Shown here: positions 1 through 55,960 of the stretch, one piece after another
Layout of the letters: each line of letters starts with the position of its first letter
Numbering within the stretch: position 1 is the first letter of the stretch
Origin: Candidatus Omnitrophota bacterium
GTDB lineage: Bacteria > Omnitrophota > Gorgyraeia > 2-01-FULL-45-10
Direction of reading: 5' to 3'
Length of the DNA: 64,000 nucleotides
Assembly (NCBI GenBank): GCA_026387175.1
Contig: JAPLME010000012.1
Span: 139,429-203,428 of the forward strand
Translations under genes and position numbers: made by a program
The notes under the pieces: generated by a model
Seen by the model: only the letters and a program-made list of their open reading frames with translations
What the model was told of the DNA's origin: nothing
Database searches by the model: none

Positions 1-1300
1 TTTCGGAAAAGGCCGCCGCGCAACTGAAGGCCGAAGCAGATACCATCATACTGAACCACGCAAAAGGTTTGTTGGCGGAATGGTTTGAAGTAAATCCCAC
101 AGCCACCTTAGATGAAATAAACGCCAAGGCGGATGAAATCATCGGTGAGTTTAGGCTTTCAGAAAATAAAAAAAGCATAGACGATTTTAAAACCAAGATT
201 GCCGCAGCCGTATTGAATCACGCCAGAACAATATTGGCTAAATGGATTAAAGAAAATCCCGCGGCTAACATAGCGGATATAAATAAAAAAGTAAGAGAAA
301 TTATCGACGATTATAAAATTTCGGGAAGAGAGAAAGACGTCGTACATTTTAGGGCCGAAGCTTCCAGGATAATATTGAGCCGGGCGGGAGAACTATTTAT
401 GAATTGGTTCAAAGCTAATCCCGCAGCCACCATAGATGAAATAAACGCTATGGTAAATGAAACTATTAAAACGTTCAAATTTCCGCAGGAGGATGTCTCT
501 TTGGGAAAAGGGCCCACGCAGCCAAAAGCCACAGCTATCGAAGCCGTATTAAATAACGCAAAAAAATTATTAATGAAGTGGTTCAGGGTAAAACGCAAAG
601 TCACCATAGCTGAAATAAACGCCATGGTAAATAAAATTATCGGTGAAGGCATGCTTTCGAAAGAAGACACGGTACAATTCAGGACTGGGTCCATTATGGA
701 CTGCGCAAAAGAATTATTTAAGAAATGGCTTAAAGAAAGCCCCGCAGCCGCTATAGTTGAGATAAACGCTGAGATAGATAAAATTATTGATAATTATAAA
801 TTTTCGAAAGAAGCCTCTATAAAATTTAAAGCCGAAGCTTCCAAAATTATATTAAGCCATGCGGAAGAACTATTGATGAATTGGTTCAAGGCTAATCCCG
901 CAGTCGCTATAGATGAGATAAACGCAATGTTAGAGGGTAGCATAGAGAGGTTCGGCTTCTCGGGAAAAACCGCAAGCCGCTTTAAAGCTGAATCCTTCAT
1001 AAGCTGCGCAAAAGAATTGTTAACGAAATGGCTTGAAGAAAATCCCAATGTTGCCATAAAAGAGATAAAAGCCGAGAAAAATAAAATTATCGGCAACCTT
1101 AAATTGTCGGAAGAAGCTGCCAAGCAATTTAGAGCCGAAGCTTCTAAAATTATATCAAATCACGCGGAAAAGTTATTAATGAGTTGGGTCAGGGCTAATC
1201 CCACAGTTGCTAAAGATGAAGCACACGCCAAGGTAATGGAAATTACCGGAAGACTGGGCATTTCTCCAAAGGAAGCCAGACGATTAACGGTCAAAATAAT
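1..1300 (+). repeat. Imperfect in-frame tandem coding repeats (~150-175 nt, at least 8 copies, continuing upstream of the window).
   Basis: Repeated nt blocks such as aattggttcaaagctaatcccgcagccaccatagatgaaataaacgc (around 409, 886 and diverged copies). Protein periodicity WFKANPAA.IDEINAM...FRAEAS.IIL.HAEELLM. Confidence 0.75.
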
Positions 1301-7578: not shown

Positions 7579-7625
7579 AGATAGCCAAGCTGCCTGGAAC
7601 AAAGGTAGCTTGGCTATCTATTTAA
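7579..7625 (+). terminator. Probable rho-independent terminator after the first giant gene.
   Basis: Stem atagccaagct / agcttggctat with a 15-nt loop, followed by ctattt. The T-tract is weak. Confidence 0.5.
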
Positions 7626-7660: not shown

Positions 7661-10600
7661 ATGAGTAGAGCAAAAAACTCAAACTTGTTTAAAGCCCTAT
7701 CTCTCATCTTAATAAGCACATTTCTATCTCTTGATATATCATATGCATATCCTCCCGAACATAATGCCAATGATTCCACGTTAGCTATTCCTTCTGTTTT
7801 GCAACAAACGCCTATAAATGAGCAAGCTGCACAATTACAACAGACTGTATTATCCCAAGGCAAGTTATTGGGCGCTGTTTGCAGTATAGGTAAATATCTT
7901 TTAGAAGATAAGCTCCCGATTAAGTATTTAAGGCAGGTTATCTCAGCGGAACTTGGCAAGGCCATTGAGGATATAGACTTGTCTCAAGTTACTGTTAAAG
8001 ATGGTGCTGCGTTCATCCCGTGCGTGATAAACAACAGAAAGCGCATCGTTCAGCTGGCTCTGAAAAATAGCCTTGCTGTAAAAAACTTAACGGGTGATGA
8101 ATGGGCCGCATCTGAGAGATATACAATAAAAATTGCTCCAGAGAAGAAGGAGCAATCGAATAGAACAATAGAGCCCCATTCACCAAAAAATATTGACGAA
8201 CAGAATATAGGATTATTTCAATCCACCCTGATAAAACGAATAGTGCAAGAGTTTGATTTAGGTGAGATTTTGAATATTGATTTCATAAACGGTGGTGGCG
8301 GAAGAATAAGCAGCCCCATTCCCAGAATCAAAACGGCAAAAGGCGTATTTTTGATAAAAAAACTGAAGAGAATGCGGGCGGATCAAAAAGGAGGCGAAGA
8401 AGACGCCTCCTTTATTATGGATTATGTGCATTATCTTATTCATCAAGGCATATCCATCCCCAGCGTTACTAAAAATGATTCAAACGGAAATGATCCCCGA
8501 GATTATTTTACAACATTTGATGTTACCACGCCCGGGGACAAAAATAAGAGATATGAATTTTATACCGTAGATAAATTTGTAGAAGGAAGATCTATCCTTC
8601 GTGAGGATTGTCCGCCGGAGACGCTTAAAGCGATCGGTAAAACGCTTGGGAAAATTCATAAAGTATCCGAAAATTTCCCCATCCGATTCAAGCTCGGCCC
8701 AGGACATTATAGTTTCTTATATTCAGTGAATGGAACGCTAGATCCTAAAGCGACTTGGTACGATAATTTGGACTCATACCTTAATCCTACAGAAAAGAAT
8801 ATCATAAGCGAAGCAATGAAAGAGATAAGAAATTATTGGAGTGAGCATGATATTAATAAAATTTCCAAACCCCAGACCATACCAAGCGATATGAATATGG
8901 CAAATATCATTTTTAACGAAAGCGGTACCGAAATACGCGCTATCTTTGATTGGGATAACGCGCGTCCCAATAGTTATAGGATAGAGGACTTTTTTGCTAC
9001 GTTATGTCATGGAGGAAGACCCCGAACCGCCAAATCATATGGCATTGCCGAAGACCTGCAGTATCTTTTACAAGGGTGGGAAGAGGGTTATGGCGGAAAA
9101 CTTGGAAAAAATGAGGAGGATTCGATTCCTCACCTCTTTGTTACAATCGTAATGGACCATATTCATGATTCTGCAGAAATATTAGCAAAGAAGGACCCGA
9201 ACGATAAATATACCGAGGATAATTTACATAACATTCTTGTGCCGGCATTGGCTAGTTTGATTAAAGGCATGATCGATAAAAAAAATACGCAGCAATATAC
9301 CCGCGAAGGCATTAAGTTGTGGTATGAACAATCAAGAAAAACTGAAAAACCGATAAAGGATTCGACATTTAATTTGACGTTGACAACTCTTTTTGGGGTT
9401 GAGTATAAGCCGGGGAGCGACGCAAGAGAAAATGCGGAATATGTCGTATCGGTGATGAATAAGTACCCCGATCGCATGGATGGGTTTATAAAAGATCTCT
9501 TCGAAGCCCTCGATAGAGGCGGACATTCGGCGACATGGTCCGGCAGATACGCGCCGCTTGCATTAGCCATGCATAATATATTGAAAGGTGGTAACGTTAA
9601 CCTCTATGATGTAGATGAGAGTTTTAATAAACTGAGCAAAGATATTCCTGAGATAGCATATCTGCTGAGTGCGTATCCTTTAACTGCCCGCGATCGCGCC
9701 GGACTTCCGCCATCCCCTGAATTCAAATTTAACGGAAATGTGCTCGCAAGCACACCTATAAAGATAATTGATTTCGGTAGCGCTCCGAAAGAGGACGGGC
9801 CTCCCGTTTTTACAACCTTGTTGAGCGTTCTGGAGCTTCTGCATCCCGGTAGATTTGATGCGGTTATAACTGATATTGTTTATCCTAAGTATCGTATTAC
9901 CGATACCGATGATATAGAGCCCGGTAGATATCAGTTTGTTGATGGAAAGGCTGATATAACGGTAAAGAAATACGGCGCTGACTGTAAGATTACGTGTTTC
10001 GATGCCTTAGCGGATGGTACCGATGGCAAATATAATGTCGTATCAGATTCATACAACTCATCTGAAAAGTATGATTTTGTGATTGCGAGCAACCTTGTAG
10101 CAGGATATATGGGCCCTAAATATCAAGGACAAACAGGGCGAGGAATAGAAGTTAACGGCAAGCGCCTGCTAAGAGAAGACGGCAATGATCAAAAGTACGA
10201 TCTTAATGACGACCAGGAAAGAATAATAAAGAATCTTCTTAAGAGTCTTAAGCCTAATGGAATACTGTTCTTTAACCCGAGCGGAACGGCCATCGACCGT
10301 AGCACAGATCACGTATTTCAGGTGATCCAAAATAAAGACGGTAGCTATGTCGTTTTTGATAACGTTATCCCATACACAACAAGCCCCGAATGCCTGATGA
10401 CGCCTTTCAATAATCTTGCCGATTATCTGCCTAAGGAAAAACGGCATTTGATAGAAGAAATCCTTCCTAAGGACAAAGCCTCATCAGACGAAATAAAAAA
10501 ATTGTTTACTCACGCCTTCTCGCTTGCTTACCATTATCAGAATAATGGCCATTCAATATGGGCCAATATGTCAAAGGCTTCTTGCGCGATCGGCATGGGG

Positions 10601-13600
10601 AGGGGGTTTATAAAGGTATTTAATACGATTATGGAGTATGTGCCGGACAAATATAGGAATCCAGTAATGGATCAGGTCAAAGATATCCTGCACAAGGAGC
10701 ACGTCTCGATCATTGACGACACCGTGAACCCTGAGCAGATATTGGATCATTACACCTCCCTTACCGATAAGAAATTAAAGGAAGAAGCAGTTTGTACTAG
10801 AGATCATATGGAGCGCGTGGGAGGAATAGTTTCAAGAATAGGTGTGAAGATAGGGCTTTCGCCGGATGACATGAAAATATTGATGGCCGCCGCATATGGT
10901 CACGACGCCGGAACAGACATGCTTTCGTCAGTATGGAAAAATATAAATGACGCGAAAGTTGATACTAATCTCGAAAAAACCCGTGCTAACATTAAAAGGA
11001 ATCCAGGTAAGGCAAATACTTTATTATCCCTTCCGGACTTTATTGTCTATGCGGAAAAGCTTATTACGGAAAGAAAGGGCGTACCGCTGACAGATGAAGA
11101 AAAGTATTTAATCGAACTCATGATCGAAGATGATTATAGGCATGGAGAAAATTCCGTAGAATTTCTGAGCAATTTTTACATAATACCCGAAGAAGTCGCG
11201 ATATTGATCAGAGAGCATAAAGACTATGAAAGCTTTTTGGAAAATATCGGTAATATTAAAGATTCTGATCGGATGGAGCGGCTGTTATCAATATTGATAA
11301 CAGCAGATGCCTTTGAGGCCATAAATGCCCGGACATCTAAAGCATTTAAAGAAACATTTGATGATATCAGGAAAAAAGGCCTCAATGAAGAGCCGTTAAA
11401 TGCGCTTTTAGCGCTCTTGGAAAAAAAAGACAAAGAATTATTAGATATTATTTTCGAAGCCAGAAAAACAGATAAATTAACCCCTGAAGACGAAGTATTT
11501 CTTAAGTTATCAGGTGAGAAAGAATTTAAAAAGATTTTCAGTTCCTACCCGACTATCAAAGAGGCGGAAGCTAACGGGTGGCTTGGGATAGCGATTCCGC
11601 GCTGGAAAGAGCTAAAGATAATGCAGCAATGGGGGCCGCATGACGATACGGTCGCTGCTCATACCCTGGGGGTATTAGAGGCTTTGAGTCAAAATGAAGC
11701 ATTAAGGAATCTTAAGAATCCTGAAGATGCTTTCACCATGGCATTTTTCCACGATTTCGGCAAAGATTTTTACAATCCTAATTATAAAAAGTCATCGGAT
11801 CAAAAACATTCAGATACTCATAATATAATAAGCGCAAAGCTTGTTTTGGATATACTTCCCGGGTTTGGTTTTAGCGAAGAGTATGCAAAGAAGATCGCAT
11901 GGTATGTGAAGTATCACCATGTTATGTGGCATCTGGCATATAAGGGAGGAATAGAGGCTAATATAACAGACGCTAACGGAAAGGAAACAACATCGTCTTT
12001 TCTTGATGAACTGACCGAAAGAGACATAGATATATTTACGATGTTTTTCTGCGCCGAAATGAAACAGGTGGGAACGTGGGATCTCGGATCGAATAGTGAA
12101 AGCATACTGAAGGTATCGGATCAATTAAAGAGGTTCGTGAATGAAACAAAAGATATTCAAGGAAAGGATCGTAAACAAAAAATAGCGCAATTTATGAAAG
12201 AGTTGATAAATGCAGCGAGTGAACGTAAGCCATGGGTAGAAAAATCAATTCGTTTTATATCTCCGAGCGTAATGGAATATCCTAACCCTGATCAAATTGA
12301 AGAAGTTTTTAGGAGTTTGGATGAAGAGATTGTCAATCATGGTATTTTTGGCATTATCCCTACATACAGATATAACTACATAAAATTATTAATGGATAAC
12401 ATGAGTCTTATAGATGAGTCAAAATATCTGTCCGCTGCATGCAAAAATGACTTACGCAAACTTTCCGCCGAAGATAGAAAAAGTTTCGCGATTGTCGCCA
12501 ATCGCGTATTGTTAGATATCTTAAATAGATCAAGTAACGGCGAGGAAGGATATTCCTTACCGGTTGTTTCCAATTTAGACTATATGCCAAATAGCCCGAC
12601 TATATTACTGGTTGCCCCTTTTGAAAAAAAAGAATTAAAGGCAGGATCGTTCCTTGCCCCGCCGCTCGGAATTTATAGGTTGGCAAATTATTTAAGATTA
12701 TTCGGGATAAAAGTCGATATATTTGACCCGAATCTTAATGGCGGCAAAGAGAAGGGCGCTGAAGAGCTTTGCGATTTTGTAAAAAAACAAACCACAAACG
12801 GAGGATATGATTTTATAGGATTCAGCATATATGCGCCGACATTGGAAAATGACTTAGAGCTTGCAGGAGAATTAAAGAAGATTTCCGCTAAATCTATTTT
12901 TATAGCCGGAGGCGAGGGTGCTTTTTATAATTCAGAAAAATTACTGACGCCCGATACGTCTTTTAATGCCATATATAAAGGATTTGGAGAAGCTTCTCTT
13001 CTTGACACTTTAATTTTATATATGCAAAACGGCAAAGGAAATCTCTATGATAAAGAAGGGGCTAGAGAGATAAAAAGCGCTATCGTAAAATTAAAGACCG
13101 GCGAAGTTATCGAAACGCCTCCGCAATCTATGGTAACAAAGGATGAGTACAGAGTTATGTCCTTATTTTTTGACAGTACGATCGTACCATATGAAGGCTA
13201 TTGGAGTTTTATGGAAGAATTATATGTTTGCGGATCCGCGGAAGTCAAGCCGATCATAGACGTAGACGCTATAAAAACGGTTAGATTAATAACCAGCAGC
13301 CATTGCCCCATGGGGTGTTCATTCTGTTCTTCCACGAATTTTCTTAATGACTCGATCGGCGAGAAAAGGCAACGGGTTCTTTCTTTGGCTCCCCAGGAAA
13401 TAATAGAAATTTTAAGGAATATAAAAAAATATCATCCGGAGACCAGAACCATATTCTTTAACGACGATGATTTTATGATCTACCCAAAGCGGGTTAAAGA
13501 ATTATGCGGTTTAATTAAGAAAGAGTTCGGAGGAAATGGATTCCGGTTTATTGCGCTTGGGAGGGTGGACAAGGTCGATAAAGAATTGCTTGAAAAAATG

Positions 13601-16600
13601 CAGGAGGCCGGATTTATTCAGATAAATTATGGCATCGAGAGCTTTTCAGACAAAGTCTTACTGGATATGAATAAAAATATTAAGAGCAGTAAGAATATTA
13701 CGGGGCTCGACATTACTTTAAATAGCGGGATAGTTCCTCTGATCAATCTCATATTATTTTACCCGACAGCTACAAAAGAAGATGTACTGTCTACTATGCG
13801 AACATCCGTTGAATTTGTCGCTAAAGGAGCCGAGTTGAGTTATTGGCCGTTTGTAGAAGCGTTCAAAGGGGCTTCTATAATGAAAAAAGTTAAAAATGGC
13901 AAAAATCCCGAAGGCGAGTATGAGTTATCGGAAAATGGAAAAGATATCTCGCCGGTTGATATAGAAGTTAGAAACCTTGCAAAAGAAGCCATTAGAAATA
14001 AAGAAACGGTAATCCAGGAGATAAAGACAAAATATGCCATAAAAGGAAAGATCCCGCATGTCGTAGATGTACTAGCCTTCTTTATCGCGTTTTATAGAGC
14101 TTCCGGTGAGCCTACGCAACGTATCGAACAAGTGATCAATGATAGGCTTGGCGCGCATGCGCAAAAGATTAAAACTATTGAAGTAGGGAAAACCTCATTA
14201 AATGTTATAGTTGCCGAAAGAATTAATACCGGTTTAATTGAGTTTCAGAAGCCGATAATTGTTACGACAGGAGAAGAAGGAGAAGCTGAAAGGCGTGCCG
14301 ATAAAGAGTTACGAGCAGGTCATGTAGGTGTGATTACGGTGGCCGGCGGCGAAGCTTCAAGGGCAGGGATTGGGTATCCTAAGGGGATGCATCCGATTAT
14401 GCCGGTTTCAGATAAAACGCTGTTTGAAACCCGCGCCGAAGAAATAAAAGTTGCCGAGGAATACTATGGTAAGACGATTCCCTGGTATATTATGATTTCA
14501 GAAAACACCGGTAAGGCCACCCAGAGTTACTTCGGAGAAAATAAATTTTTTGGTTTAAGGAAGGAAGATGTTATTTTTGTTCAGGCGGAAAGCGTACCGG
14601 CGTTCTTGGCGGGTACGCAACGAGTAGCCATGAAGGATGCCGAGCACATATTAACGATGCCGGGTGGACATGGCAACATATATAAGGCCATGCAGAACAA
14701 ACAGGCACGCACGGATGGAGGAAAGATAAGCGCGCTAGAAGATGCTAAGCAAAGAGGCATAGAAACGTTTGTATACTGTCAAATTGATAATGCGATGCCG
14801 GTTATGAATAGACGGGCTTTAGGGGTACATCTGAAAGAGAATTCGGATTTTACGATCGTCTCAGTGCGCAAAAGAGATCAAGAGGAAAACCTCGGCATTC
14901 CTGTTCTGGATACTTTAAACGGGAATAACTTTTTTGTTGAATACAATCAGCCCGGAGGCGAGGAGCTTAAGCATAAAAAGGGTTTTGATTATGGCGCGTG
15001 CGGTATATTTATTCTCGCGCGCAGTTTTATGGAGAAAATGGATCAGCCTCCATATCATCTGGTCCGCAACAAAAAATCTAAAATATATAAAGACGGTAAA
15101 ATTCAGCAAGGCCTTATCGACAAATATGAAAATTTTATGTTCGATGTTTTACCGTATGCAAAAAAATCAGTTAATATTTTATTTCCCAGAGAAGAATGTT
15201 TTGCTCCGTTTAAGAGCATGGAAGGGCCTGATTCTTATGAGGCCGCTGCCAAGACCGTATCAAATTACTGGAAAATAATAATTGGAAGGGCATTTCCTGA
15301 GCTTGAAATTCCTCAGACAACGATTATTGAATTACCCAGGCGTTCAGAATACATGAAACCGCGAGAACTTAGAAGAGCATTATTGGCTATAAATTTTCCA
15401 AATTTTTTGGAAGGAAACGCAAGCTTGCTTGTTTCGTCTGATTTCATGAAAGTGACTAAAAAGATATTGAATCTATCGGGAAATTCCCGCGCGCTGTCCG
15501 GCAGGCTGCTTACTGGTAAATTATCCCGATATGAAAGAGAAATATTAAAGAGGGCTATACTGGAAAAGTATAGAGAAGAGCAAAAAGTAGGGGCGATCGA
15601 AAAAATTCGGTATCCGCAGGATAGCAGTGATTGGGAATCGGCCGGTAATGCTTTGGCAAAAGCCCGGGAAAAATATGCAGAAACCGGCAAGCCGTTATTT
15701 TTAGAAGGAGTTACTTTAATTTACAGGCCTAGAGACAACAAATATGGACTATTTCGAGAAGCAATTGAAAAAATGAATAACTGGAATACAGCGGAAGAAA
15801 AACCTCTTGTTGCCACCGTCGCCGCAGGATCAGAGCATATAACACTCTATGATCTTGCTTGTATGCTTGACTGGGAGAGGAAATATAAAAATCAATTTAA
15901 TGATTCTACGAAACACGAAATTGATAAAAGAACCGAAGAGCTTCTTGGGGCAGGTGGGTTTGAGACAGGGGATCATGCCTGCGAGCAAGCCACATATGAA
16001 ATATTAACCAAGAAGGTTGATAAAATATTAAAAGATTTTAAAGCGGATAGAGCGCCTGTTTTTAAACCGTGCAATATCGCTATATCAATGCCACCATGCG
16101 GGCCGTTTGCCGTTCTTTTAAGCATGGAGCCTAAGACCGCGGAAGATTTAGCGATTGTCACTAAGATTCAGGATGCTATCAGGGATGAAACCGGAATTGA
16201 AAACACAGGAGCTGTTAAAGTCCATATAACATTGGGGTATATTGTTAATTCTATTTATAAGGATGAAAAGGTATTTGGAGAATTCATGCGGCATATTACC
16301 GAATTAGACGCGTATATAAGAGGGAAAGGCGCTTTACCGGAGCACGAATTTACCTCCCCTCAAATGGAACTAAGCTATCTCGACAATCTGGACAATTATA
16401 AACCTATCTCTACTTTTGGATGGATAGGCTCGAATATAAATTCTGCAACTTCGTCAGTAGCAGCGCCGGTCGCAATCCGTGCCGGCACTCCCGAAGGCCG
16501 ATATGACGTAGCCACCGCGAAAGTCATTAATGGAGAATTGCAGGATTACAAAGGTATAGATAATGGGATGCAGGCGGCCCTGTCAACGCTATTGGAAAGA

Positions 16601-18862
16601 ATCACGAATAAGGACATTGAAACGAAAGTCGCCGAGCTTCTTGGCGACGATGTCGCGAGAATAAAGCTATTAGAAGGCAAAACCATAAGAATCGTCCAGG
16701 ACAACGACCGGTTAATGCACTTTACGGAAGATCCTAATGTCATAACTATAGATATAGACGCACTAAAGTATAACGAACTTTTATTCATGGAATTCATCCA
16801 CGAATTATTACATGCGAAGCTTGCGGCAATGCCTACGAGAGCAGGACCTATCGAGGAAGAGATAACTGTTACTACACTGGAAGTCGAACTCTTCCTGACA
16901 TTCCCGCAAGATATCCAGAATAAGATCCTCGAAACACTCAAAGCAGATAATGACTTAGATGACCAGCAATTCTATAAAATCCTCGAAAAAGCTAAAACCA
17001 ATGCCGATATCAATAGCGTAAGAGACGATATTATAAATTATGTCCTTTCAAACCTCCCCGATCATGGTATAGGCATCCCCATTGCTGTATCATATGATAC
17101 CGGAGAATATCTGGCGCATGTGGCATTTCAGCAGGAATATAGCGACACAGCCACCTATGACGGCAAGGACAGGCAATTCCTACACAGAACTCCCGATGGC
17201 AAAATCAAGACAGGCCCTTGTACAGACTTTTTATTGACGAAGCGGAAACCGATAAATGAATATATCAAAGAGTTTAAGGCCGCTCACAGTGAATTAGAGA
17301 TTATTGCCGTACTGCCGCATGGCAATGCCATGACGAACGAAGGATTTGTAATATTCTCCGGAGGTAAGCTCTATCATACAATTAAGGAAATAGAACAACC
17401 GGATGCAAAAGGCAAAACCTACACCTGCTTTGTGTCGTGGAAGGATAAATGGGAAGGAAAAAAATATTCAGTCAAGGAATTGGAATTCAGAGGTAATGAA
17501 GTATTCGTGTCCGGGACGGCCTCGCCAATTACAGATAAGATCAACTATGCCGTATCGGGCCAACAACTTGTCAAAGGCTCAGAAGCTGTGCCTATAGCCA
17601 GTCTTTATGATAAATTAGTGGACCCAAAACAGATATTTATTTACCCACACTTTAAATACAAAGATTCCGAAGGCAATGACCGCGATCTATTCTTCGGTAT
17701 GGCCGCTATGTACAAGAATAAAGAATTGTTCGAAAAAGTTCTGAAACCTGAACCGGAATTCATCGAATTCAGTAGGGCAGAGCTTGTCGACCTGGGGATT
17801 AATGCAAATGACGTGATAAAAACGGCTATGGATGAGCTTGGCTACAAAGAAGAGGCCGATTACATACTTACACCGAGTATGATAAAAATACGGCTTAAAC
17901 TAAACCCTTATGCCCACAACCTGATAGGTGTAAACGATAAAGGGGATATAGTCACCATAACATGCACAGGCGATTCCAAAAAGCATAAAGGTATAACCAT
18001 AACGGATCTCCAGGATTTTGTAATTAAGAACGGCGTGAAGGACATGATAATGCTATCTAACGGCACGGACATACAGATCCTAGATGGAAACGGTAAAAGG
18101 CTTGTCGAATCCGCCAATAAAGCTCGCACTGAAATGCCGGCAGTAATAATAATTGCGAAGAAACGCTTGTCGGTATCCAAAACAGTGGAATTCTCATTGA
18201 ATAATGAAAATAATCTTAACCAATTCGAAGCAGATAGTGCGGTCGGAGATTTGATAATTCTCGCAAGGCGTGCTCAAAGAGAGAACCAAAAACTTATAAT
18301 CGGCCTTGAGACGGATTGGATACCCGGAATGAATGTGAAGGGCAGCCTGCAGAGAAATGCAATTGCCGCGCTAATGAAAGAAATAGATGGAATTGGCGAA
18401 ACCTTAAAATCTATGGGCTTGGATAATGTAGAGGTTATCCGCGGGAGTGGGAATGATTTAGCAAATACATTGCTGACTGAAGCCGATAAAACCCATACCA
18501 GTTTGCATAACATCGTTGTGATGGCATCGACAAACACTATAAATTCTAATAGCTTTACGGCGTTAAAGGATGCGAATGAGAATGATAGACCATTCCTTGC
18601 CGGTATAGACCCTACGGAACTGATGAAACTTTACGACGAATTTGGCGAGACTACCAGTAAACAGCTCTATATACGACTGATGCAGATGCTCTATATGACA
18701 TTGGAGCTTGCGTCAGGTAAGGAGCCGCCTCAGATTCCCTTAATCATGTCATATGATAAGAAGACGAGAACTGTTATATTCCTGCCAAAAGCAGAGCCTA
18801 GAGATTATGAAATGTTAAAGAACGTCTATGCGGCTGAGAAGATGGCGTTAGCAGCGGCATAG
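7661..18862 (+). CDS. Giant secreted multidomain protein (3733 aa). Contains a signal-peptide-like N-terminus, a PKL/APH-like kinase fold with a degenerate catalytic motif, two HD domains, a B12-binding + radical SAM domain, a UDP-sugar pyrophosphorylase-like nucleotidyltransferase, an HExxH module, and a C-terminal domain shared with the 21211 gene.
   Basis: No in-frame stop for 11.2 kb. RBS-poor but AT-rich upstream. SDMNMAN...FDWD (8885-8968). AYGHDAG (10901) and FFHDFGKDF (11750). SHCPMGCSFCSS gives CxxxCxxC at 13304-13327, preceded by a Rossmann-like B12-binding region (DFIGFSIYAP). VITVAGGEASRAG...MPGGHGNIY (14320-14700) UDPGP-like. FIHELLH at 16798-16812. Confidence 0.85.
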   Translation: MSRAKNSNLFKALSLILISTFLSLDISYAYPPEHNANDSTLAIPSVLQQTPINEQAAQLQQTVLSQGKLLGAVCSIGKYLLEDKLPIKYLRQVISAELGKAIEDIDLSQVTVKDGAAFIPCVINNRKRIVQLALKNSLAVKNLTGDEWAASERYTIKIAPEKKEQSNRTIEPHSPKNIDEQNIGLFQSTLIKRIVQEFDLGEILNIDFINGGGGRISSPIPRIKTAKGVFLIKKLKRMRADQKGGEEDASFIMDYVHYLIHQGISIPSVTKNDSNGNDPRDYFTTFDVTTPGDKNKRYEFYTVDKFVEGRSILREDCPPETLKAIGKTLGKIHKVSENFPIRFKLGPGHYSFLYSVNGTLDPKATWYDNLDSYLNPTEKNIISEAMKEIRNYWSEHDINKISKPQTIPSDMNMANIIFNESGTEIRAIFDWDNARPNSYRIEDFFATLCHGGRPRTAKSYGIAEDLQYLLQGWEEGYGGKLGKNEEDSIPHLFVTIVMDHIHDSAEILAKKDPNDKYTEDNLHNILVPALASLIKGMIDKKNTQQYTREGIKLWYEQSRKTEKPIKDSTFNLTLTTLFGVEYKPGSDARENAEYVVSVMNKYPDRMDGFIKDLFEALDRGGHSATWSGRYAPLALAMHNILKGGNVNLYDVDESFNKLSKDIPEIAYLLSAYPLTARDRAGLPPSPEFKFNGNVLASTPIKIIDFGSAPKEDGPPVFTTLLSVLELLHPGRFDAVITDIVYPKYRITDTDDIEPGRYQFVDGKADITVKKYGADCKITCFDALADGTDGKYNVVSDSYNSSEKYDFVIASNLVAGYMGPKYQGQTGRGIEVNGKRLLREDGNDQKYDLNDDQERIIKNLLKSLKPNGILFFNPSGTAIDRSTDHVFQVIQNKDGSYVVFDNVIPYTTSPECLMTPFNNLADYLPKEKRHLIEEILPKDKASSDEIKKLFTHAFSLAYHYQNNGHSIWANMSKASCAIGMGRGFIKVFNTIMEYVPDKYRNPVMDQVKDILHKEHVSIIDDTVNPEQILDHYTSLTDKKLKEEAVCTRDHMERVGGIVSRIGVKIGLSPDDMKILMAAAYGHDAGTDMLSSVWKNINDAKVDTNLEKTRANIKRNPGKANTLLSLPDFIVYAEKLITERKGVPLTDEEKYLIELMIEDDYRHGENSVEFLSNFYIIPEEVAILIREHKDYESFLENIGNIKDSDRMERLLSILITADAFEAINARTSKAFKETFDDIRKKGLNEEPLNALLALLEKKDKELLDIIFEARKTDKLTPEDEVFLKLSGEKEFKKIFSSYPTIKEAEANGWLGIAIPRWKELKIMQQWGPHDDTVAAHTLGVLEALSQNEALRNLKNPEDAFTMAFFHDFGKDFYNPNYKKSSDQKHSDTHNIISAKLVLDILPGFGFSEEYAKKIAWYVKYHHVMWHLAYKGGIEANITDANGKETTSSFLDELTERDIDIFTMFFCAEMKQVGTWDLGSNSESILKVSDQLKRFVNETKDIQGKDRKQKIAQFMKELINAASERKPWVEKSIRFISPSVMEYPNPDQIEEVFRSLDEEIVNHGIFGIIPTYRYNYIKLLMDNMSLIDESKYLSAACKNDLRKLSAEDRKSFAIVANRVLLDILNRSSNGEEGYSLPVVSNLDYMPNSPTILLVAPFEKKELKAGSFLAPPLGIYRLANYLRLFGIKVDIFDPNLNGGKEKGAEELCDFVKKQTTNGGYDFIGFSIYAPTLENDLELAGELKKISAKSIFIAGGEGAFYNSEKLLTPDTSFNAIYKGFGEASLLDTLILYMQNGKGNLYDKEGAREIKSAIVKLKTGEVIETPPQSMVTKDEYRVMSLFFDSTIVPYEGYWSFMEELYVCGSAEVKPIIDVDAIKTVRLITSSHCPMGCSFCSSTNFLNDSIGEKRQRVLSLAPQEIIEILRNIKKYHPETRTIFFNDDDFMIYPKRVKELCGLIKKEFGGNGFRFIALGRVDKVDKELLEKMQEAGFIQINYGIESFSDKVLLDMNKNIKSSKNITGLDITLNSGIVPLINLILFYPTATKEDVLSTMRTSVEFVAKGAELSYWPFVEAFKGASIMKKVKNGKNPEGEYELSENGKDISPVDIEVRNLAKEAIRNKETVIQEIKTKYAIKGKIPHVVDVLAFFIAFYRASGEPTQRIEQVINDRLGAHAQKIKTIEVGKTSLNVIVAERINTGLIEFQKPIIVTTGEEGEAERRADKELRAGHVGVITVAGGEASRAGIGYPKGMHPIMPVSDKTLFETRAEEIKVAEEYYGKTIPWYIMISENTGKATQSYFGENKFFGLRKEDVIFVQAESVPAFLAGTQRVAMKDAEHILTMPGGHGNIYKAMQNKQARTDGGKISALEDAKQRGIETFVYCQIDNAMPVMNRRALGVHLKENSDFTIVSVRKRDQEENLGIPVLDTLNGNNFFVEYNQPGGEELKHKKGFDYGACGIFILARSFMEKMDQPPYHLVRNKKSKIYKDGKIQQGLIDKYENFMFDVLPYAKKSVNILFPREECFAPFKSMEGPDSYEAAAKTVSNYWKIIIGRAFPELEIPQTTIIELPRRSEYMKPRELRRALLAINFPNFLEGNASLLVSSDFMKVTKKILNLSGNSRALSGRLLTGKLSRYEREILKRAILEKYREEQKVGAIEKIRYPQDSSDWESAGNALAKAREKYAETGKPLFLEGVTLIYRPRDNKYGLFREAIEKMNNWNTAEEKPLVATVAAGSEHITLYDLACMLDWERKYKNQFNDSTKHEIDKRTEELLGAGGFETGDHACEQATYEILTKKVDKILKDFKADRAPVFKPCNIAISMPPCGPFAVLLSMEPKTAEDLAIVTKIQDAIRDETGIENTGAVKVHITLGYIVNSIYKDEKVFGEFMRHITELDAYIRGKGALPEHEFTSPQMELSYLDNLDNYKPISTFGWIGSNINSATSSVAAPVAIRAGTPEGRYDVATAKVINGELQDYKGIDNGMQAALSTLLERITNKDIETKVAELLGDDVARIKLLEGKTIRIVQDNDRLMHFTEDPNVITIDIDALKYNELLFMEFIHELLHAKLAAMPTRAGPIEEEITVTTLEVELFLTFPQDIQNKILETLKADNDLDDQQFYKILEKAKTNADINSVRDDIINYVLSNLPDHGIGIPIAVSYDTGEYLAHVAFQQEYSDTATYDGKDRQFLHRTPDGKIKTGPCTDFLLTKRKPINEYIKEFKAAHSELEIIAVLPHGNAMTNEGFVIFSGGKLYHTIKEIEQPDAKGKTYTCFVSWKDKWEGKKYSVKELEFRGNEVFVSGTASPITDKINYAVSGQQLVKGSEAVPIASLYDKLVDPKQIFIYPHFKYKDSEGNDRDLFFGMAAMYKNKELFEKVLKPEPEFIEFSRAELVDLGINANDVIKTAMDELGYKEEADYILTPSMIKIRLKLNPYAHNLIGVNDKGDIVTITCTGDSKKHKGITITDLQDFVIKNGVKDMIMLSNGTDIQILDGNGKRLVESANKARTEMPAVIIIAKKRLSVSKTVEFSLNNENNLNQFEADSAVGDLIILARRAQRENQKLIIGLETDWIPGMNVKGSLQRNAIAALMKEIDGIGETLKSMGLDNVEVIRGSGNDLANTLLTEADKTHTSLHNIVVMASTNTINSNSFTALKDANENDRPFLAGIDPTELMKLYDEFGETTSKQLYIRLMQMLYMTLELASGKEPPQIPLIMSYDKKTRTVIFLPKAEPRDYEMLKNVYAAEKMALAAA

Positions 18863-19002
18863 TTAAGATGAAAAAAGGTAGCAGCATTTATATTGACCTA
18901 ACAGTATCTTGATGGTAAACTTAAACATATTCTTTTAAGAGAATAAAATATGACAAGACACAGGTTCAGGTTAAAACGAATAGATAATGAGCTTCATTTT
19001 AA

Positions 19003-19071: not shown

Positions 19072-21195
19072 ATGGAAAGATTAAAGAAGATAGTTGCGAT
19101 TCTAATTATCATATGTTTCGGCTTAAATAATGTTTCTTATGCCTTTGAGATCAATGCATTTAAGCTGGCCGTGCCAAGCAGTTTTTCTAACTTTAAGGAC
19201 CAGGGATTCAAAGAAGCCGCGCAAATACAGATCGGTATGCGCATGGCTTTAAAAGACCTGGCATCACTTGACCTATCTTCTTTAAATGCACTAGGAAAGC
19301 GACAATTTGCTGAAAAAACTATTTTTACCCGAAAAATATCAGGCACCATGTATTTTGATGAGGCCCAAGCATGTAAGCCTAACGATCAAAAGCTTTATGC
19401 TGAATCAGGCAGCTATCTGGTTAAGGCACAAACAGCAAGCGGCATAACATATTACTGTTTTATCTCAAACAAGAGAAATGAGAAAGGTTATGATGTCTCG
19501 GTCGTGCCTGAAAAAGTGCTTGCCGAAGCGCTGCGAAATGATTATGCGGCGAAGGGCACTAAAAAGAAAAGCATGTTTAGGGGAGGCATATCTATAGTTA
19601 TTGCAGGCGCCCTGATGATAGGCGCCTATTCTTACTTCCATGGAGAATCAAATAAAGATGCGCTATCAGAAGTAATGAACGCTATAAATGAATGGCATAA
19701 ATACGAATACGCTGCTCCCGCTACTTACCAGGATAATCTGGTCAAAATAGCGCGCGAAAAAATAATAGAAAGATTGGTAAGTGCATTAGGTGAATATCGG
19801 CACAATAAGAGATTTGGCGATTATTTTGAGGACGACTCGGGGCTTCAGGAAGATAAGGAAACATTCGACTGCACTGTCCCCGAAATCGCGGCTAATGCTT
19901 TTGGCGAAATAGGTAAGCCAGCCGTTCCGAAACTCATAAAAGCACTAAATGAAAAGGTAGTGAAAAAATCAGATTTCAAGCGCCGTGAATATGTAGCAAA
20001 AGCATTAGGTATGACGGGTGATGCAGAAGTGGTAGAGCCGTTAATTCAAACCTTAAAACAATTGGCAGATAGCGGTTGTGGGGCCAGCGATTACAAGCAC
20101 AATAAGTCCGTATTTGACGGTTTAGTTAGAGTAGGTAAACCGGCCGTCCCGGCGCTTATAGAAGTTCTAAATGATAATACAAGGGATCCCAAAAAAACCT
20201 TAGAGACTCACCGCGGTCCGCTTTGCAGCTATGAATGCTTCAACCGTGCTAAATTTGCCGCCGAAGCGTTAGGTGTTATAGGCGATGGAAGAGCCGTAGA
20301 GCCTTTAATTCAAGCTCTAAAACGGTTATCAAACGTATACTGGGTGGATACGATTTCCGCAAATCATAACATAGTAATTGCTTTAGGAAGGTTAGGAGAT
20401 AAGCGGGCAATCGAGCCGCTCATGGTACACATGAAGAATAACGAATGGAACCCTAGCCGCGTTAAAATCGTAAAAAAGGCTATCGAAAGAATCGAAAAGA
20501 GGCAGGGGGGCACATCGGCTCCGGAGACGTCGTCTCAAGGGCTGGCAATGGCTGGTTCAGTGGTGTTAGGTTTAGTAGGGAAGCCTAGGGAAAAGTATGC
20601 AAAACCGGCAAACGAAGACATCCGTCTTATAGCATCGCGAATAAAAGAAGCGGGCATAGAAGTATTTATTCCTAAATCTCAATTCCTGGGTGACACGATA
20701 GCTAAATATAGGGGCGTTGTGGAATCTATAGGAGGCAAGCTTAGGGTATACCAGAATATCGAAGCCTTGCAAGGCATGGTGGAGTATCCCGCTAAGTCAA
20801 TAATAATGACCGCCGGTATTTCAGAAGGCGACATGGCATTGTTGCAAAGTTTAAAAGCAAGCATGGGGCAGCTTAGATTCATGAATTTTGCAAAGATGGA
20901 GGATTTAAGTACGATGTCAGTAGAAGAGGTTGATAATTATCAGGCTGATATTTTAAGCATTCTCCTTATAGCAAGAATAATTACGCCCGAAGATTTTCAA
21001 GATAAGGGCAGTCCCACCTATCGGATGCTTGCGCATCTATTGGAAGACTACATGCCTGAAGGCGTAGCAGTGGAAAATTATATACAGGATATAGTTACAA
21101 ATGCGGCTAGACTGGTTAAGACGATATTGAAGGCCTTACCAGTAGCAGCATACAAAGTTATGAGGCAATCTGTTGAAGTTCTCTGGGCAGCGTAA
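19072..21195 (+). CDS. Secreted/membrane HEAT-repeat (PBS-lyase-type) protein, 707 aa.
   Basis: N-terminal hydrophobic leader MERLKKIVAILIIICFGLNNVSYAFE. Repeated A.ALG.IGD..AVEPLIQALK motifs (19900-20420), typical of HEAT_2/PBS lyase repeats. Ends ...VLWAA. Confidence 0.7.
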   Translation: MERLKKIVAILIIICFGLNNVSYAFEINAFKLAVPSSFSNFKDQGFKEAAQIQIGMRMALKDLASLDLSSLNALGKRQFAEKTIFTRKISGTMYFDEAQACKPNDQKLYAESGSYLVKAQTASGITYYCFISNKRNEKGYDVSVVPEKVLAEALRNDYAAKGTKKKSMFRGGISIVIAGALMIGAYSYFHGESNKDALSEVMNAINEWHKYEYAAPATYQDNLVKIAREKIIERLVSALGEYRHNKRFGDYFEDDSGLQEDKETFDCTVPEIAANAFGEIGKPAVPKLIKALNEKVVKKSDFKRREYVAKALGMTGDAEVVEPLIQTLKQLADSGCGASDYKHNKSVFDGLVRVGKPAVPALIEVLNDNTRDPKKTLETHRGPLCSYECFNRAKFAAEALGVIGDGRAVEPLIQALKRLSNVYWVDTISANHNIVIALGRLGDKRAIEPLMVHMKNNEWNPSRVKIVKKAIERIEKRQGGTSAPETSSQGLAMAGSVVLGLVGKPREKYAKPANEDIRLIASRIKEAGIEVFIPKSQFLGDTIAKYRGVVESIGGKLRVYQNIEALQGMVEYPAKSIIMTAGISEGDMALLQSLKASMGQLRFMNFAKMEDLSTMSVEEVDNYQADILSILLIARIITPEDFQDKGSPTYRMLAHLLEDYMPEGVAVENYIQDIVTNAARLVKTILKALPVAAYKVMRQSVEVLWAA

Positions 21196-25068: not shown

Positions 25069-25098
25069 TTAAGATATAAAAAAGTTAGTATAGAGCTA

Positions 25099-35488: not shown

Positions 35489-35503
35489 TATATACAAATA
35501 TAA

Positions 35504-35560
35504 GGCCGATGTCAGAGACATCGGCACTTAGCTATCACTATGGCAGAATAAACTAGGAGA
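35504..35560 (+). promoter_or_regulatory. Conserved palindromic leader element, copy 1.
   Basis: GCCGATGTC-AGAG-ACATCGGC perfect dyad (35505-35525), then ACTTAGC...ATGGCAGAATAAACTAGGAG. Near-identical copies at 47588 and 59813. Confidence 0.6.
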
Positions 35561-41206: not shown

Positions 41207-41215
41207 AGCCGACGC

Positions 41216-47571: not shown

Positions 47572-47587
47572 GAGTTTAAAAAATACA

Positions 47588-55880: not shown

Positions 55881-55960
55881 TTATGATATAATATAGCTAG
55901 TTCCGGTGTTTTTTATTGACCGGTTATTATAAACATTATAAAAGAAAGAAGGAGAATTCT

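What the first reader, a model, noticed from the sequence alone, without database searches (positions are those of the whole stretch)
12590..15330. B12-binding radical SAM domain and UDP-sugar pyrophosphorylase-like domain embedded in a 3733-aa secreted-type protein that also carries HD and kinase-like domains
SHCPMGCSFCSS gives the canonical CxxxCxxC 4Fe-4S/SAM motif (13304-13327). It is preceded by a Rossmann-like region typical of class B (cobalamin-binding) radical SAM enzymes and followed ~300 aa later by a UDPGP-like nucleotidyltransferase (GGEASRAG...MPGGHGNIY). Upstream in the same protein are a protein-kinase-like/APH fold whose catalytic HxD is replaced by PSD (a pseudokinase?) and two HD phosphohydrolase motifs. 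Radical SAM chemistry requires a reducing, Fe-S-competent compartment. That conflicts with the Sec-type N-terminus, so the actual topology or destination of this protein is an open question.
Basis: partly seen in the sequence, partly recalled or inferred. Interest (0 to 1): 0.8.

Follow-up and report, generated by a model that had tools for sequence, protein, structure and literature searches.

The report
Radical SAM cargo in exported Omnitrophota protein
A 3,733-residue protein of an uncultured Omnitrophota bacterium really does carry an intact cobalamin-type radical SAM enzyme and a UDP-sugar-forming enzyme behind a classical export signal. It belongs to a large family, not covered by Pfam or NCBIfam, in which varied "cytoplasmic" enzymes sit between one conserved N-terminal and one conserved C-terminal module, so where these enzymes work is an open and testable question.

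Summary
ORF 7661-18862 (+) is identical to GenBank MCX5678999.1, Candidatus Omnitrophica. It contains a B12-binding domain, a Radical_SAM core (CxxxCxxC at nt 13304-13327), an AGX1/UAP1-like UDPGP domain, two HD domains and an APH-type kinase domain.

The radical SAM domain keeps every residue conserved among its homologues. It has no SPASM/twitch cysteines. The "pseudokinase" reading is not supported.

New findings:
- Residues 1539-2924 (linker, B12-rSAM, UDPGP, a 2xHxTL domain) form one collinear cassette, 63% identical to part of a second protein.
- The protein belongs to a family of at least 600 sequence clusters. Variable nucleotide-, NAD-, PLP- or SAM-dependent enzyme cargo is bracketed by a conserved N-cap and a roughly 230-residue C-cap.
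- The N-cap has an 11-residue basic n-region, a 13-residue h-region, then D-I-S-[WY]-A|Y-P-P-E. The C-cap always ends A-L-x-[AS]-A-COOH.
- All five tandem large genes at 3-35151 carry the C-cap.

Radical SAM and sugar-metabolism domains in signal- or TM-bearing Omnitrophota giant proteins, and the resulting localisation paradox, are already described in two preprints. So this is a new variant of a known kind. Where the enzymes act remains unresolved.

The parts
7661..18862 (+). Whole gene, 3,733 aa; identical to MCX5678999.1 (Candidatus Omnitrophica/Omnitrophota MAG)
   Evidence: AAGGA 8 nt upstream of the ATG
7661..7747 (+). Signal-peptide-like segment (aa 1-29): basic n-region MSRAKNSNLFK, 13-aa h-region ALSLILISTFLSL, c-region DISYA, then YPPE
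   Evidence: It is the only hydrophobic window above KD 1.6 in the protein. The layout is fixed across the family: the h-region is 13 aa in 55 of 56 members.
7661..8155 (+). N-cap (aa 1-165): signal, conserved low-confidence linker (DISYAYPPE..STLAxPS), and a small two-helix plus beta-sheet domain
8228..9220 (+). APH-type (aminoglycoside/sugar/choline kinase-like) kinase domain, aa ~190-520
   Evidence: 39% identical to P0049 aa 686-991, which hits Pfam APH at E 1e-11. NCBIfam PRK11768 E 2e-4. Motifs SDMNMAN and FDWDNA are conserved.
10766..11530 (+). First HD(-GYP-like) phosphohydrolase region, aa 1036-1290 (H1049..GHD at 1080)
   Evidence: Homologous to repeated segments of P0005, P0062 and P0164. 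The profile hits HD-GYP structures 4mcw (E 1e-6) and 5z7c (E 4e-4).
11654..11938 (+). Second HD domain (Pfam PF01966), aa 1332-1426 (HDFGK at 1364)
   Evidence: the same domain occurs in P0110, P0060 and P0049
12275..16432 (+). Conserved cassette aa 1539-2924: linker, B12-binding, radical SAM, UDPGP, 2xHxTL domain
   Evidence: One collinear BLASTP alignment, 63% identity over 1,391 aa, to P0038 aa 672-2053 (same as locus L013, another Omnitrophica MAG)
12656..12952 (+). Cobalamin (B12)-binding Rossmann-like domain, aa 1666-1764
   Evidence: PF02310 at 31.4 bits, cutoff 32.1. NCBIfam Sden_1168 alignment spans aa 1644-2042. FLAPPLG, AGG and G.GE are conserved in 25 homologues.
13289..13801 (+). 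Radical SAM core, aa 1877-2047
   Evidence: PF04055 E 7.6e-19; PDB 9ccb_A E 1e-4; family-conserved motifs are retained
13304..13327 (+). CxxxCxxC [4Fe-4S]/SAM motif (C1882, C1886, C1889)
   Evidence: conserved in at least 80% of the aligned homologues
14315..15412 (+). UDPGP-family nucleotidyltransferase, closest to eukaryote-type UDP-GlcNAc pyrophosphorylase (AGX1/UAP1), aa 2219-2584
   Evidence: PF01704 E 1.2e-19. PDB 1jv1 E 2.7e-33. GGQGTRLG becomes GGEASRAG. YPKGM and FxPxK are kept.
15578..16465 (+). Conserved ~290-aa domain with two H-[IV]-T-L motifs (aa 2726, 2855); tentatively 2H-phosphoesterase-like
   Evidence: 59% identical to P0038. Only motif-level similarity to the AKAP7/2H region of P0049 (hhalign probability 11%) and to PDB 2fsq (E 0.8). 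The assignment is not established.
16463..17047 (+). HExxH module (HELLH at aa 3047), shared with the upstream gene
   Evidence: 80% aa and 87% nt identity to window 1345-1928. Also present in L005 and L006. No PDB or Pfam match.
17048..18160 (+). Region with a weak NAGPA (phosphodiester glycosidase) similarity, aa 3130-3500
   Evidence: PF09992 E 0.0026, below cutoff; homologous segments in P0119, P0164, P0169 and P0110
18167..18859 (+). C-cap (aa 3503-3733): flavodoxin-like alpha/beta domain ending ...ALAAA-COOH
6753..7499 (+). C-cap of the upstream gene (ORF running off the window start to 7502; PPDK_N cargo)
19072..21195 (+). Family member, 707 aa: divergent N-cap, HEAT repeats, divergent C-cap
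21211..25068 (+). Family member, 1,285 aa: N-cap, HEAT repeats, C-cap (C-cap 70% identical to that of the 3,733-aa protein)
25201..35151 (+). 3,316-aa protein with a different signal-like N-terminus, PGM/PMM domains I-IV and a divergent C-cap

Best explanation
SHOWN. ORF 7661-18862 is a genuine single gene for a modular multi-enzyme protein of an Omnitrophota bacterium. The flagged stretch is an intact class-B (cobalamin-binding) radical SAM domain, followed by a UDP-N-acetylhexosamine-pyrophosphorylase-like (AGX1/UAP1-type) domain and a conserved 290-aa domain. Together with the linker upstream, these form one roughly 1,390-aa cassette that also occurs as a unit in a second protein.

The protein belongs to a large Omnitrophota family with three parts:
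- An N-cap: a classical Sec/signal-peptidase-I-type signal of fixed layout plus a roughly 110-aa domain.
- Variable cargo: enzymes that need ATP/UTP, NAD, PLP or SAM, plus HEAT scaffolds.
- A roughly 230-aa alpha/beta C-cap that always ends the chain with A-L-x-[AS]-A-COOH.

INFERRED. The kinase, UAP-like and B12-rSAM domains act as a sugar salvage and tailoring line. A free (N-acetyl)hexose is phosphorylated at C1 and converted with UTP to a UDP-sugar. The sugar is then methylated or otherwise rearranged by cobalamin-dependent radical chemistry. The HD and HxTL domains handle phosphoester by-products.

The caps, not the enzymes, define the family, so they are most likely the sorting and/or assembly devices. 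The signal would send the unfolded chain through Sec. The C-cap would then anchor or assemble it in the envelope or coat, possibly together with the neighbouring capped proteins encoded in tandem.

On this reading the enzymes work outside the producer's cytoplasm, in an anoxic setting. Nucleotides, SAM, cobalamin, Fe-S and reductant would have to come from an attached or lysed host. This last step is the weakest link.
For: Domain identity:
- Pfam and NCBIfam hits.
- The AGX1 alignment keeps the catalytic Arg, the PK motif and the FxPxK motif.
- All residues conserved in 25 rSAM homologues are present here.

Cassette:
- 63% identity over 1,391 collinear residues with P0038/L013.
- P0038 has no segment homologous to this protein's APH kinase. 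Its cargo ahead of the cassette has only a weak mevalonate-kinase (GHMP family) similarity (NCBIfam E 0.0014).

Sugar context:
- More distant rSAM relatives are fused to GT2, or to NDP-sugar epimerase/DegT domains (P0027-P0029).
- Stand-alone relatives sit next to a methyltransferase, beta-helix proteins and a GT2.

Family:
- The caps are shared while the middles differ.
- 25 loci in about 20 Omnitrophota MAGs carry caps only at the termini, often in tandem genes.
- 606 clusters match the C-cap profile, terminal in all of the best 150.
- 88 representatives carry both caps and span 707-5,572 aa.
- Cargo census.

Export signal:
- The n-region carries net +2 or +3 charge in most members.
- The h-region is exactly 13 uncharged residues in 55 of 56 members.
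- Small residues sit at -3 and -1 (S/A, A).
- The following 20 residues are net negative.
- RR occurs in only 2 of 56 members.
- There is no other TM-like segment.

Against: - No known route loads [4Fe-4S], cobalamin, SAM or a low-potential reductant outside a cytoplasm.
- Every cargo type seen needs cytoplasmic cofactors. That argues for a cytoplasmic workplace.
- No signal-peptide or topology predictor could be run, and cleavage is unproven.
- The G-loop of the UAP-like domain is altered (GGEASRAG).
- Substrates are unknown. The rSAM scores far below every curated equivalog cutoff, so 'methyltransferase' is only the commonest class-B activity.
- No conserved secretion or sorting gene was found next to the arrays.
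Confidence: 0.5

Rival explanations
1. Cytoplasmic-face tether. The N-terminal hydrophobic segment is not a cleaved export signal. It is a membrane or assembly anchor, or export is blocked by folding. The whole enzymatic body stays in the producer's cytoplasm as a membrane-tethered nucleotide-sugar 'metabolon' that feeds envelope glycan synthesis. The topology paradox then disappears.
For: - All cargo domains are cofactor- or nucleotide-dependent cytoplasmic enzyme types: radical SAM, NDK, guanylate kinase, DegT, NAD-epimerases, PGM, PPDK_N.
- Both preprints concede that extracellular predictions for such domains may be wrong, or that a cytoplasmic-face reading fits.
- Some long C-cap proteins lack the N-cap.
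Against: - A 13-residue h-region is too short to span a bilayer and is typical of cleaved signals.
- The charge distribution (basic before, acidic after) predicts N-in/C-out.
- The -3/-1 small-residue rule is kept in nearly all members.
- There is no second TM segment to bring the chain back.
- Ordinary secreted proteins of the same window (glucanases, solute-binding lipoprotein) have comparable N-termini.
Confidence: 0.3
2. Dead enzymes used as structure. The enzyme-like domains are catalytically inactive relics, reused as binding or scaffold modules of a surface coat or adhesin.
For: - The UAP-like G-loop is altered.
- The kinase lacks the His of HxD.
- HEAT scaffolds are the commonest cargo.
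- Adhesion roles have been proposed for giant Omnitrophota proteins.
Against: - The three cluster cysteines and all family-conserved rSAM/B12 residues are retained.
- The catalytic Arg/Lys motifs of the UAP domain are retained.
- The HD dyads are retained.
- The cassette is 63% identical over 1,391 residues between two proteins, about the same as the C-caps (68%) and well above the N-caps (37%).
Confidence: 0.08
3. Tat-type export of the folded, cofactor-loaded protein.
For: This would reconcile cofactors with export. The n-region ends in x-[LF]-F-[KR], which loosely resembles the end of the Tat consensus.
Against: A twin arginine is present in only 2 of 56 N-caps. At 3,733 aa, the protein would far exceed known Tat substrates (from general knowledge).
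Confidence: 0.03
4. Assembly or annotation artefact: several genes fused by frameshift or chimeric assembly.
For: The source is a metagenome-assembled genome. The gene has lower GC than the downstream locus.
Against: - The reading frame is uninterrupted, with family caps at both ends.
- The same cassette order occurs in an independent MAG.
- 88 representatives carry both caps.
Confidence: 0.02

Closest known systems
Omnitrophota giant multi-enzyme proteins ('Archaeovorins', West-Roberts et al. 2023 bioRxiv 10.1101/2023.11.21.568195; 'multi-enzyme metabolic clusters', 2026 bioRxiv 10.64898/2026.06.07.730766)
   Same: Same phylum. The same repertoire is strung on one polypeptide or in neighbouring genes: HEAT_2, Radical_SAM, PPDK_N, PGM/PMM, HAD, HD. 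They share a signal peptide or TM at the N-terminus, and the same unresolved conflict between predicted extracellular location and cytoplasmic-type enzymes.
   Different: This protein is 3.7 kaa, against at least 10-147 kaa. It has a single N-terminal hydrophobic segment rather than tens of TM helices, and no SecA_DEAD domain. It is defined by conserved N- and C-terminal caps that those papers do not describe, in the passages I read. It occurs as tandem arrays of separate genes.
Class B (cobalamin-dependent) radical SAM enzymes, e.g. PhpK, HpnR/HpnJ, BchE, ApyD
   Same: N-terminal B12-binding Rossmann domain followed by a CxxxCxxC radical SAM core. No SPASM extension. These are the best NCBIfam hits.
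   Different: It scores 40-63 bits against equivalog cutoffs of 360-750, so it belongs to none of the curated subfamilies. It is embedded in a multidomain chain with a signal peptide. Its nearest stand-alone relatives (31-33% identity) are uncharacterised.
Eukaryote-type UDP-N-acetylglucosamine pyrophosphorylase AGX1/UAP1 (PDB 1jv1)
   Same: The alignment runs over about 310 residues, E 2.7e-33. The catalytic Arg of the G-loop, the PKG motif, the PxGxG sugar loop and the FxPxK Lys are conserved.
   Different: The G-loop is GGEASRAG instead of GGQGTRLG. It is one domain of a 3,733-aa protein. Its substrate is untested. GenBank names the whole protein UTP--glucose-1-phosphate uridylyltransferase.
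Fused or paired anomeric sugar kinase + NDP-sugar pyrophosphorylase salvage enzymes (e.g. Bacteroides FKP; AmgK/MurU; NahK). Recalled from general knowledge, not tested here
   Same: An APH-type kinase and a UDP-sugar pyrophosphorylase sit in one chain.
   Different: No orthology was shown. Here the two are separated by about 1,700 residues carrying HD and radical SAM domains.
Two-signal secreted cargo families (T9SS substrates with an N-terminal signal plus a conserved C-terminal domain; autotransporters). Analogy from general knowledge
   Same: Sec-type signal, then variable functional middle, then a conserved domain fixed at the extreme C-terminus.
   Different: The C-cap is predicted to be an alpha/beta flavodoxin-like fold, not a beta-sandwich CTD or a beta-barrel. 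There is an additional conserved N-terminal domain. No T9SS or other partner gene was seen nearby.

Membership tests
Radical SAM superfamily, class B (cobalamin-dependent) | CxxxCxxC cluster motif inside a radical SAM (partial TIM-barrel) core | tested here: met
   PF04055 E 7.6e-19 at aa 1877-2047. Motif at aa 1882-1889. Conserved in at least 80% of the aligned homologues.
Radical SAM superfamily, class B (cobalamin-dependent) | N-terminal cobalamin-binding Rossmann-like domain preceding the core | tested here: met
   PF02310 at 31.4 bits, just under the 32.1 cutoff. NCBIfam B12-rSAM models align across aa 1644-2042. All 24 homologues carry PF02310 plus PF04055. FLAPPLG, AGG and G.GE are conserved.
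Radical SAM superfamily, class B (cobalamin-dependent) | Membership of a curated functional subfamily (PhpK, HpnR, BchE and others) | tested here: not met
   All scores are 14-63 bits against cutoffs of 251-750
Radical SAM superfamily, class B (cobalamin-dependent) | Binds [4Fe-4S] and cobalamin; reductively cleaves SAM | not testable with these tools
   Needs anaerobic biochemistry
SPASM/twitch radical SAM enzymes | C-terminal auxiliary-cluster cysteines | tested here: not met
   No Cys between aa 1950 and 2220
UDPGP family (PF01704), UAP1/AGX1 type | Profile match above the curated cutoff | tested here: met
   70.8 bits against a cutoff of 22; PDB 1jv1 E 2.7e-33
UDPGP family (PF01704), UAP1/AGX1 type | Nucleotide-binding G-loop (GGxGTRLG) and catalytic Lys motifs | tested here: inconclusive
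   The loop is GGEASRAG: the Gly-Gly and Arg are kept, Thr is replaced by Ser, and Gly by Ala. YPKG and FAPFK align with the AGX1 PKG and FSPLK motifs. Activity was not tested.
HD phosphohydrolases | H...HD...D metal-binding motifs with a profile match | tested here: met
   PF01966 E 8.8e-11 at aa 1332-1426. The profile of the first region hits HD-GYP 4mcw at E 1e-6.
APH / protein-kinase-like fold | Profile match and catalytic Asp plus Mg-binding Asp | tested here: inconclusive
   There is no direct Pfam hit. NCBIfam PRK11768 gives E 2e-4. The 39%-identical homologue P0049 hits PF01636 at E 1e-11. D of S-D-M-N and D-W-D are invariant.
Sec / signal peptidase I signal peptides | Basic n-region, 7-15-residue h-region, small residues at -3/-1 | tested here: met
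   Rule-based only: an 11-aa n-region (+2/+3), a 13-aa h-region, then D-I-S-[WY]-A|Y-P, across 56 members. No SignalP or DeepTMHMM run and no cleavage data.
Tat signal peptides | Twin-arginine motif | tested here: not met
   RR in 2 of 56 N-caps; none in this protein
Archaeovorin-type giant proteins of Omnitrophota | Length of at least 10-30 kaa, numerous TM helices, SecA_DEAD domain | tested here: not met
   3,733 aa, one hydrophobic segment, no SecA Pfam hit
Archaeovorin-type giant proteins of Omnitrophota | Omnitrophota origin; mixed HEAT, Radical_SAM, PPDK_N and PGM sugar-metabolism domains behind a signal or TM | tested here: met

The most novel reading that the evidence does not exclude
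The N-cap/C-cap pair is a dedicated sorting and assembly system of Omnitrophota. It carries cofactor-dependent 'cytoplasmic' enzymes, including cobalamin-dependent radical SAM enzymes, across the cell membrane into a surface coat or into attached prey. Radical SAM and nucleotide-sugar chemistry would then be carried out outside the producer's cytoplasm, using the host's metabolites.
Probability: 0.2. Interest if true: 0.9.

Novelty: new variant of a known kind. Interest (0 to 1): 0.6.

Why it matters
Radical SAM enzymes are regarded as strictly cytoplasmic. Here they recur in roughly a fifth of the scanned members (5 of 21 and 4 of 25) of a family of at least 600 sequence clusters whose N-termini obey the textbook rules for Sec export.

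Previous work saw the same conflict only in 10-150 kaa proteins, which are almost impossible to handle experimentally. The capped family offers 0.7-5 kaa proteins with a uniform signal and a uniform C-terminal domain. Simple reporter fusions, N-terminal proteomics and expression of a 1,390-aa cassette could therefore settle where these enzymes act.

Either outcome is useful. One possibility is a new sorting route for cofactor enzymes in host-dependent nanobacteria. The other is a well-documented class of signal-like N-termini that current rules misread, which matters for every topology-based claim about Omnitrophota giant proteins.

Tried and rejected
- The word-indexed homologue search with the N-cap alignment returned nothing, although members exist. 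That search was wasted.
I repeated it with 5 closer sequences.
- The exact-protein contig look-up for MCX5678999.1 found no record, so DNA upstream of the window could not be read.
- The afdb50 fold library was unavailable.
- PDB sequence and profile searches gave no significant match for the kinase region, the 2xHxTL domain, the HExxH module or the first cargo domain of P0038. I therefore give '2H phosphoesterase', 'zincin' and 'GHMP kinase' only as tentative readings.
- Clustering the flanking ORFs of 25 loci for a conserved partner gene found only an antisense shadow ORF across the C-cap.
- I considered and rejected four readings: a prepilin or lipoprotein signal (no G|F-T-L-x-E, no lipobox Cys, from the sequence); a Tat signal; an autotransporter barrel (the model is alpha/beta); and a functional link to the downstream beta-1,2-glucan locus (no recurrent non-family neighbour in the other loci).

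Full report
**1. The observation.** The window is one coding strand of large genes. The finding lies inside ORF 7661..18862 (+), 3,733 aa, with AAGGA 8 nt before the ATG. No ORF of at least 150 aa lies opposite. Pfam gives:
- Radical_SAM, aa 1877-2047, E 7.6e-19.
- B12-binding, aa 1666-1764, 31.4 bits, just under the 32.1 cutoff.
- UDPGP, aa 2219-2584, E 1.2e-19.
- HD, aa 1332-1426, E 8.8e-11.

The best NCBIfam hits are all cobalamin-dependent radical SAM families (PhpK, ApyD, Sden_1168, HpnJ, BchE), and each falls far below its equivalog cutoff. CPMGCSFC is at aa 1882-1889, which is nt 13304-13327, exactly as reported. With 27 Cys in 3,733 residues, about 0.001 such motifs are expected by chance. 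The protein is identical to GenBank MCX5678999.1, named 'UTP--glucose-1-phosphate uridylyltransferase' from a Candidatus Omnitrophica MAG, on a 251-kb contig.

**2. State of the domains.** I aligned the B12-rSAM part with 25 homologues. It keeps every residue that at least 80% of them share: FLAPPLG, AGG, G.GE, the cluster motif CP.GC.FC.ST, F.DD.F and G.E.FS. After Cys1949 there is no cysteine up to aa 2220, so there is no SPASM or twitch extension.

The UDPGP domain is closest to eukaryote-type UDP-GlcNAc pyrophosphorylase (AGX1, 1jv1, E 2.7e-33). The G-loop reads GGEASRAG instead of GGQGTRLG, but the Arg, the PKG motif and the FxPxK lysine motif align.

A second HD region (aa 1036-1290) is confirmed by a profile hit to HD-GYP structures (4mcw, E 1e-6).

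The kinase-like region has no Pfam hit of its own. Its 39%-identical homologue in P0049 scores as Pfam APH (E 1e-11). The catalytic Asp (S-D-M-N) and the D-W-D are invariant between the two. So 'pseudokinase' is not supported.

Further segments are:
- A domain with two H-[IV]-T-L motifs. The 2H-phosphoesterase reading is only tentative.
- An HExxH module.
- A weak NAGPA-like region.

**3. A conserved cassette.** Residues 1539-2924 (linker, B12-rSAM, UDPGP, HxTL domain) align collinearly with P0038 aa 672-2053, at 63% identity over 1,391 residues. P0038 is a 2,387-aa protein of another Omnitrophica MAG (locus L013). Outside that block the cargo differs. P0038 has no segment homologous to the APH kinase, HD, HExxH or NAGPA regions. 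Ahead of the cassette it has a domain with only a weak mevalonate-kinase (GHMP family) similarity (NCBIfam E 0.0014; my reading of GHMP-like motifs is by eye).

Other modules of the 3,733-aa protein turn up singly in other family members: kinase plus HD in P0049, HD in P0110 and P0060, UDPGP in P0045, and the HExxH module in the upstream gene and in L005/L006. The HExxH module is 87% identical at DNA level to window 1345-1876. The architecture is therefore a mosaic of exchangeable cassettes, and the radical SAM and UDP-sugar domains travel together.

**4. Hints on chemistry.** More distant relatives of the rSAM domain are fused to GT2 glycosyltransferases, or to NDP-sugar epimerase/dehydratase and DegT aminotransferase domains (P0027-P0029). 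Stand-alone relatives (31-33% identity) sit beside a class-I methyltransferase, beta-helix proteins and a GT2.

With an anomeric-kinase-type fold and a UAP-like domain in the same chain, the most economical reading is sugar salvage to a UDP-sugar plus cobalamin-dependent radical tailoring. This is inference. No substrate is known.

**5. The family (new here).** The whole-protein search returned only four other proteins of 2,450-5,191 aa. They match at the first ~160 and last ~220 residues; one of them also shares HD-like repeats. Inside the window, the 1,285-aa and 707-aa proteins share both ends. All five tandem genes from the window start to 35151 end with the same C-terminal module.
- A profile of the C-cap finds 606 clusters (50% identity) at E<=1e-3 and 382 at E<=1e-10. 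In all of the best 150 it is a single copy at the extreme C-terminus.
- 88 representatives carry both caps and span 707-5,572 aa.
- A scan of one genome per species found 25 loci in about 20 MAGs. Nearly all are labelled Omnitrophota; a few are labelled Planctomycetia or Makaraimicrobium.
- In those loci, an ORF ending in a C-cap is often followed within 5-250 nt by one starting with an N-cap.
- Neither cap matches Pfam or NCBIfam.

**6. Cargo census.** Of 21 and of 25 members scanned, Radical_SAM occurs in 5 and 4, and HEAT repeats in 5 and 9. Other cargo includes NDK, guanylate kinase, APH, UDPGP, DegT, Polysacc_synt_2, NAD-epimerase, mannitol dehydrogenase, GT2, HAD, aldo-keto reductase, PPDK_N and PGM/PMM. 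Almost all of these need nucleotides, NAD, PLP or SAM.

**7. The caps.** The N-cap has a remarkably fixed layout:
- The n-region is 11 residues in 40 of 56 members, with net charge +2 or +3 in most.
- The h-region is exactly 13 uncharged residues in 55 of 56.
- Next comes D-[IV]-[SA]-[WY]-A-Y-P-[P]-[ED].
- The following 20 residues are net negative.
- RR occurs in only 2 of 56.

This is the textbook form of a cleaved Sec/SPase-I signal (small residues at -3 and -1). The h-region is too short for a membrane span, and it is not a Tat signal. No other hydrophobic segment exists in the protein.

**8. Comparison with the literature.** West-Roberts et al. (bioRxiv 10.1101/2023.11.21.568195) describe Omnitrophota 'Archaeovorins' of at least 30 kaa carrying HEAT_2, Radical_SAM, PPDK_N, PGM/PMM and HAD domains. 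Most of those domains are predicted to be extracellular, and the authors warn that the localisation may be wrong.

A 2026 preprint (10.64898/2026.06.07.730766) catalogues 916 long proteins. 94% have a TM helix or a signal peptide. One 'sugar-metabolism' module includes PGM and radical SAM. The preprint discusses the same conflict explicitly.

Seymour et al. (PMC10066038) summarise the proposal that the giant protein of V. archaeovorus forms an extracellular coat used on prey.

The finding is therefore a smaller, single-signal relative of a known phenomenon. It lacks the multiple TM helices and the SecA_DEAD domain of the giants. The cap architecture is not mentioned in the passages I read.

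**9. Interpretation.** Three things are shown: the domain identities, the intact motifs, and the cassette and family structure. Two things are inferred: a nucleotide-sugar salvage and tailoring function, and caps that act as sorting or assembly devices.

Localisation is unresolved. The sequence rules say the protein is exported. The cofactor needs say it works in a cytoplasm.
- Export followed by action in a coat or on prey: 0.5 (this number also covers the domain and family claims).
- A cytoplasmic-face tether: 0.3.
- Inactive structural domains, Tat export and an assembly artefact are unlikely (0.08, 0.03 and 0.02), for the reasons listed under the rivals.

**10. Verdict.** This is a new variant of a known kind, with interest 0.6. 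The value lies less in this one radical SAM domain than in the capped family, which makes the localisation question experimentally tractable.

Noticed in passing
window 35496-35559 and 47579-47643: A 65-nt direct repeat (84.6% identity) lies just upstream of two gene starts: 35565 (HAMP protein) and 47652 (GH94 protein). It may be a shared regulatory element.
   Followed up: no
window 1345-1876 vs 16461-16992: 532 nt are 87% identical between the upstream gene and the 3,733-aa gene. This is the HExxH (HELLH) module, and it suggests recent duplication or gene conversion between neighbouring genes.
   Followed up: partly
window 18205-18881 vs 24410-25088: The C-cap coding regions of the 3,733-aa and 1,285-aa genes are 71% identical at DNA level, and the similarity runs about 20 nt past both stop codons. 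Their N-caps are only 34% identical at protein level.
   Followed up: no
window 7582-7620: A perfect 12-bp inverted repeat (GATAGCCAAGCT ... AGCTTGGCTATC) lies in the 158-nt gap between the upstream gene's stop and the ATG at 7661. It looks like a terminator or attenuator hairpin.
   Followed up: no
window 36242-59809: A beta-1,2-glucan-type locus lies downstream:
- Three PF10091 'glucoamylase' proteins (36242-37522, 43451-45742, 53814-55880).
- A CBM11-like protein (42767-43378).
- A solute-binding lipoprotein (39193-40512) and two ABC permeases (55916-57809).
- A two-component system (40535-42682).
- A ROK protein (58580-59809).
- A 2,050-aa GH94 protein with about 13 hydrophobic segments (47652-53804).

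   Followed up: partly
window 1-36000 vs 36000-64000: The array of large genes has a lower GC content (0.38-0.48) than the rest of the window (0.46-0.54).
   Followed up: no
window 240-1219: There are internal DNA repeats (67-79% identity) within the upstream PPDK_N-containing gene.
   Followed up: no
C-terminus of family members, e.g. window 18845-18859: The free C-terminus A-L-x-[AS]-A-COOH is nearly invariant. From general knowledge, it recalls the ssrA tag end (YALAA) and the non-polar tails read by PDZ-type tail-specific proteases. This was not tested.
   Followed up: no
[not shown]
   Followed up: partly
P0006, P0007, P0009, P0010 (database proteins): The same linker plus B12-rSAM unit (46-49% identity) also occurs in multidomain proteins that have signal-like N-termini but lack both caps. 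Two relatives are labelled Bathyarchaeia (P0007) and Nanoarchaeia (P0011), which probably reflects mis-binning.
   Followed up: partly
L009, L014, L015, L017-L022, L024 (opposite strand of the C-cap): A 'conserved' antisense ORF of about 267 aa recurs in 10 loci. It is a shadow of the conserved C-cap coding sequence, not a gene.
   Followed up: yes
window 25201-35151: The 3,316-aa PGM/PMM protein has a divergent C-cap but a different signal-like N-terminus (MRFWKKTISILLIHAFLLSSLPAGA). The C-cap is therefore not tied to one N-terminal type.
   Followed up: partly
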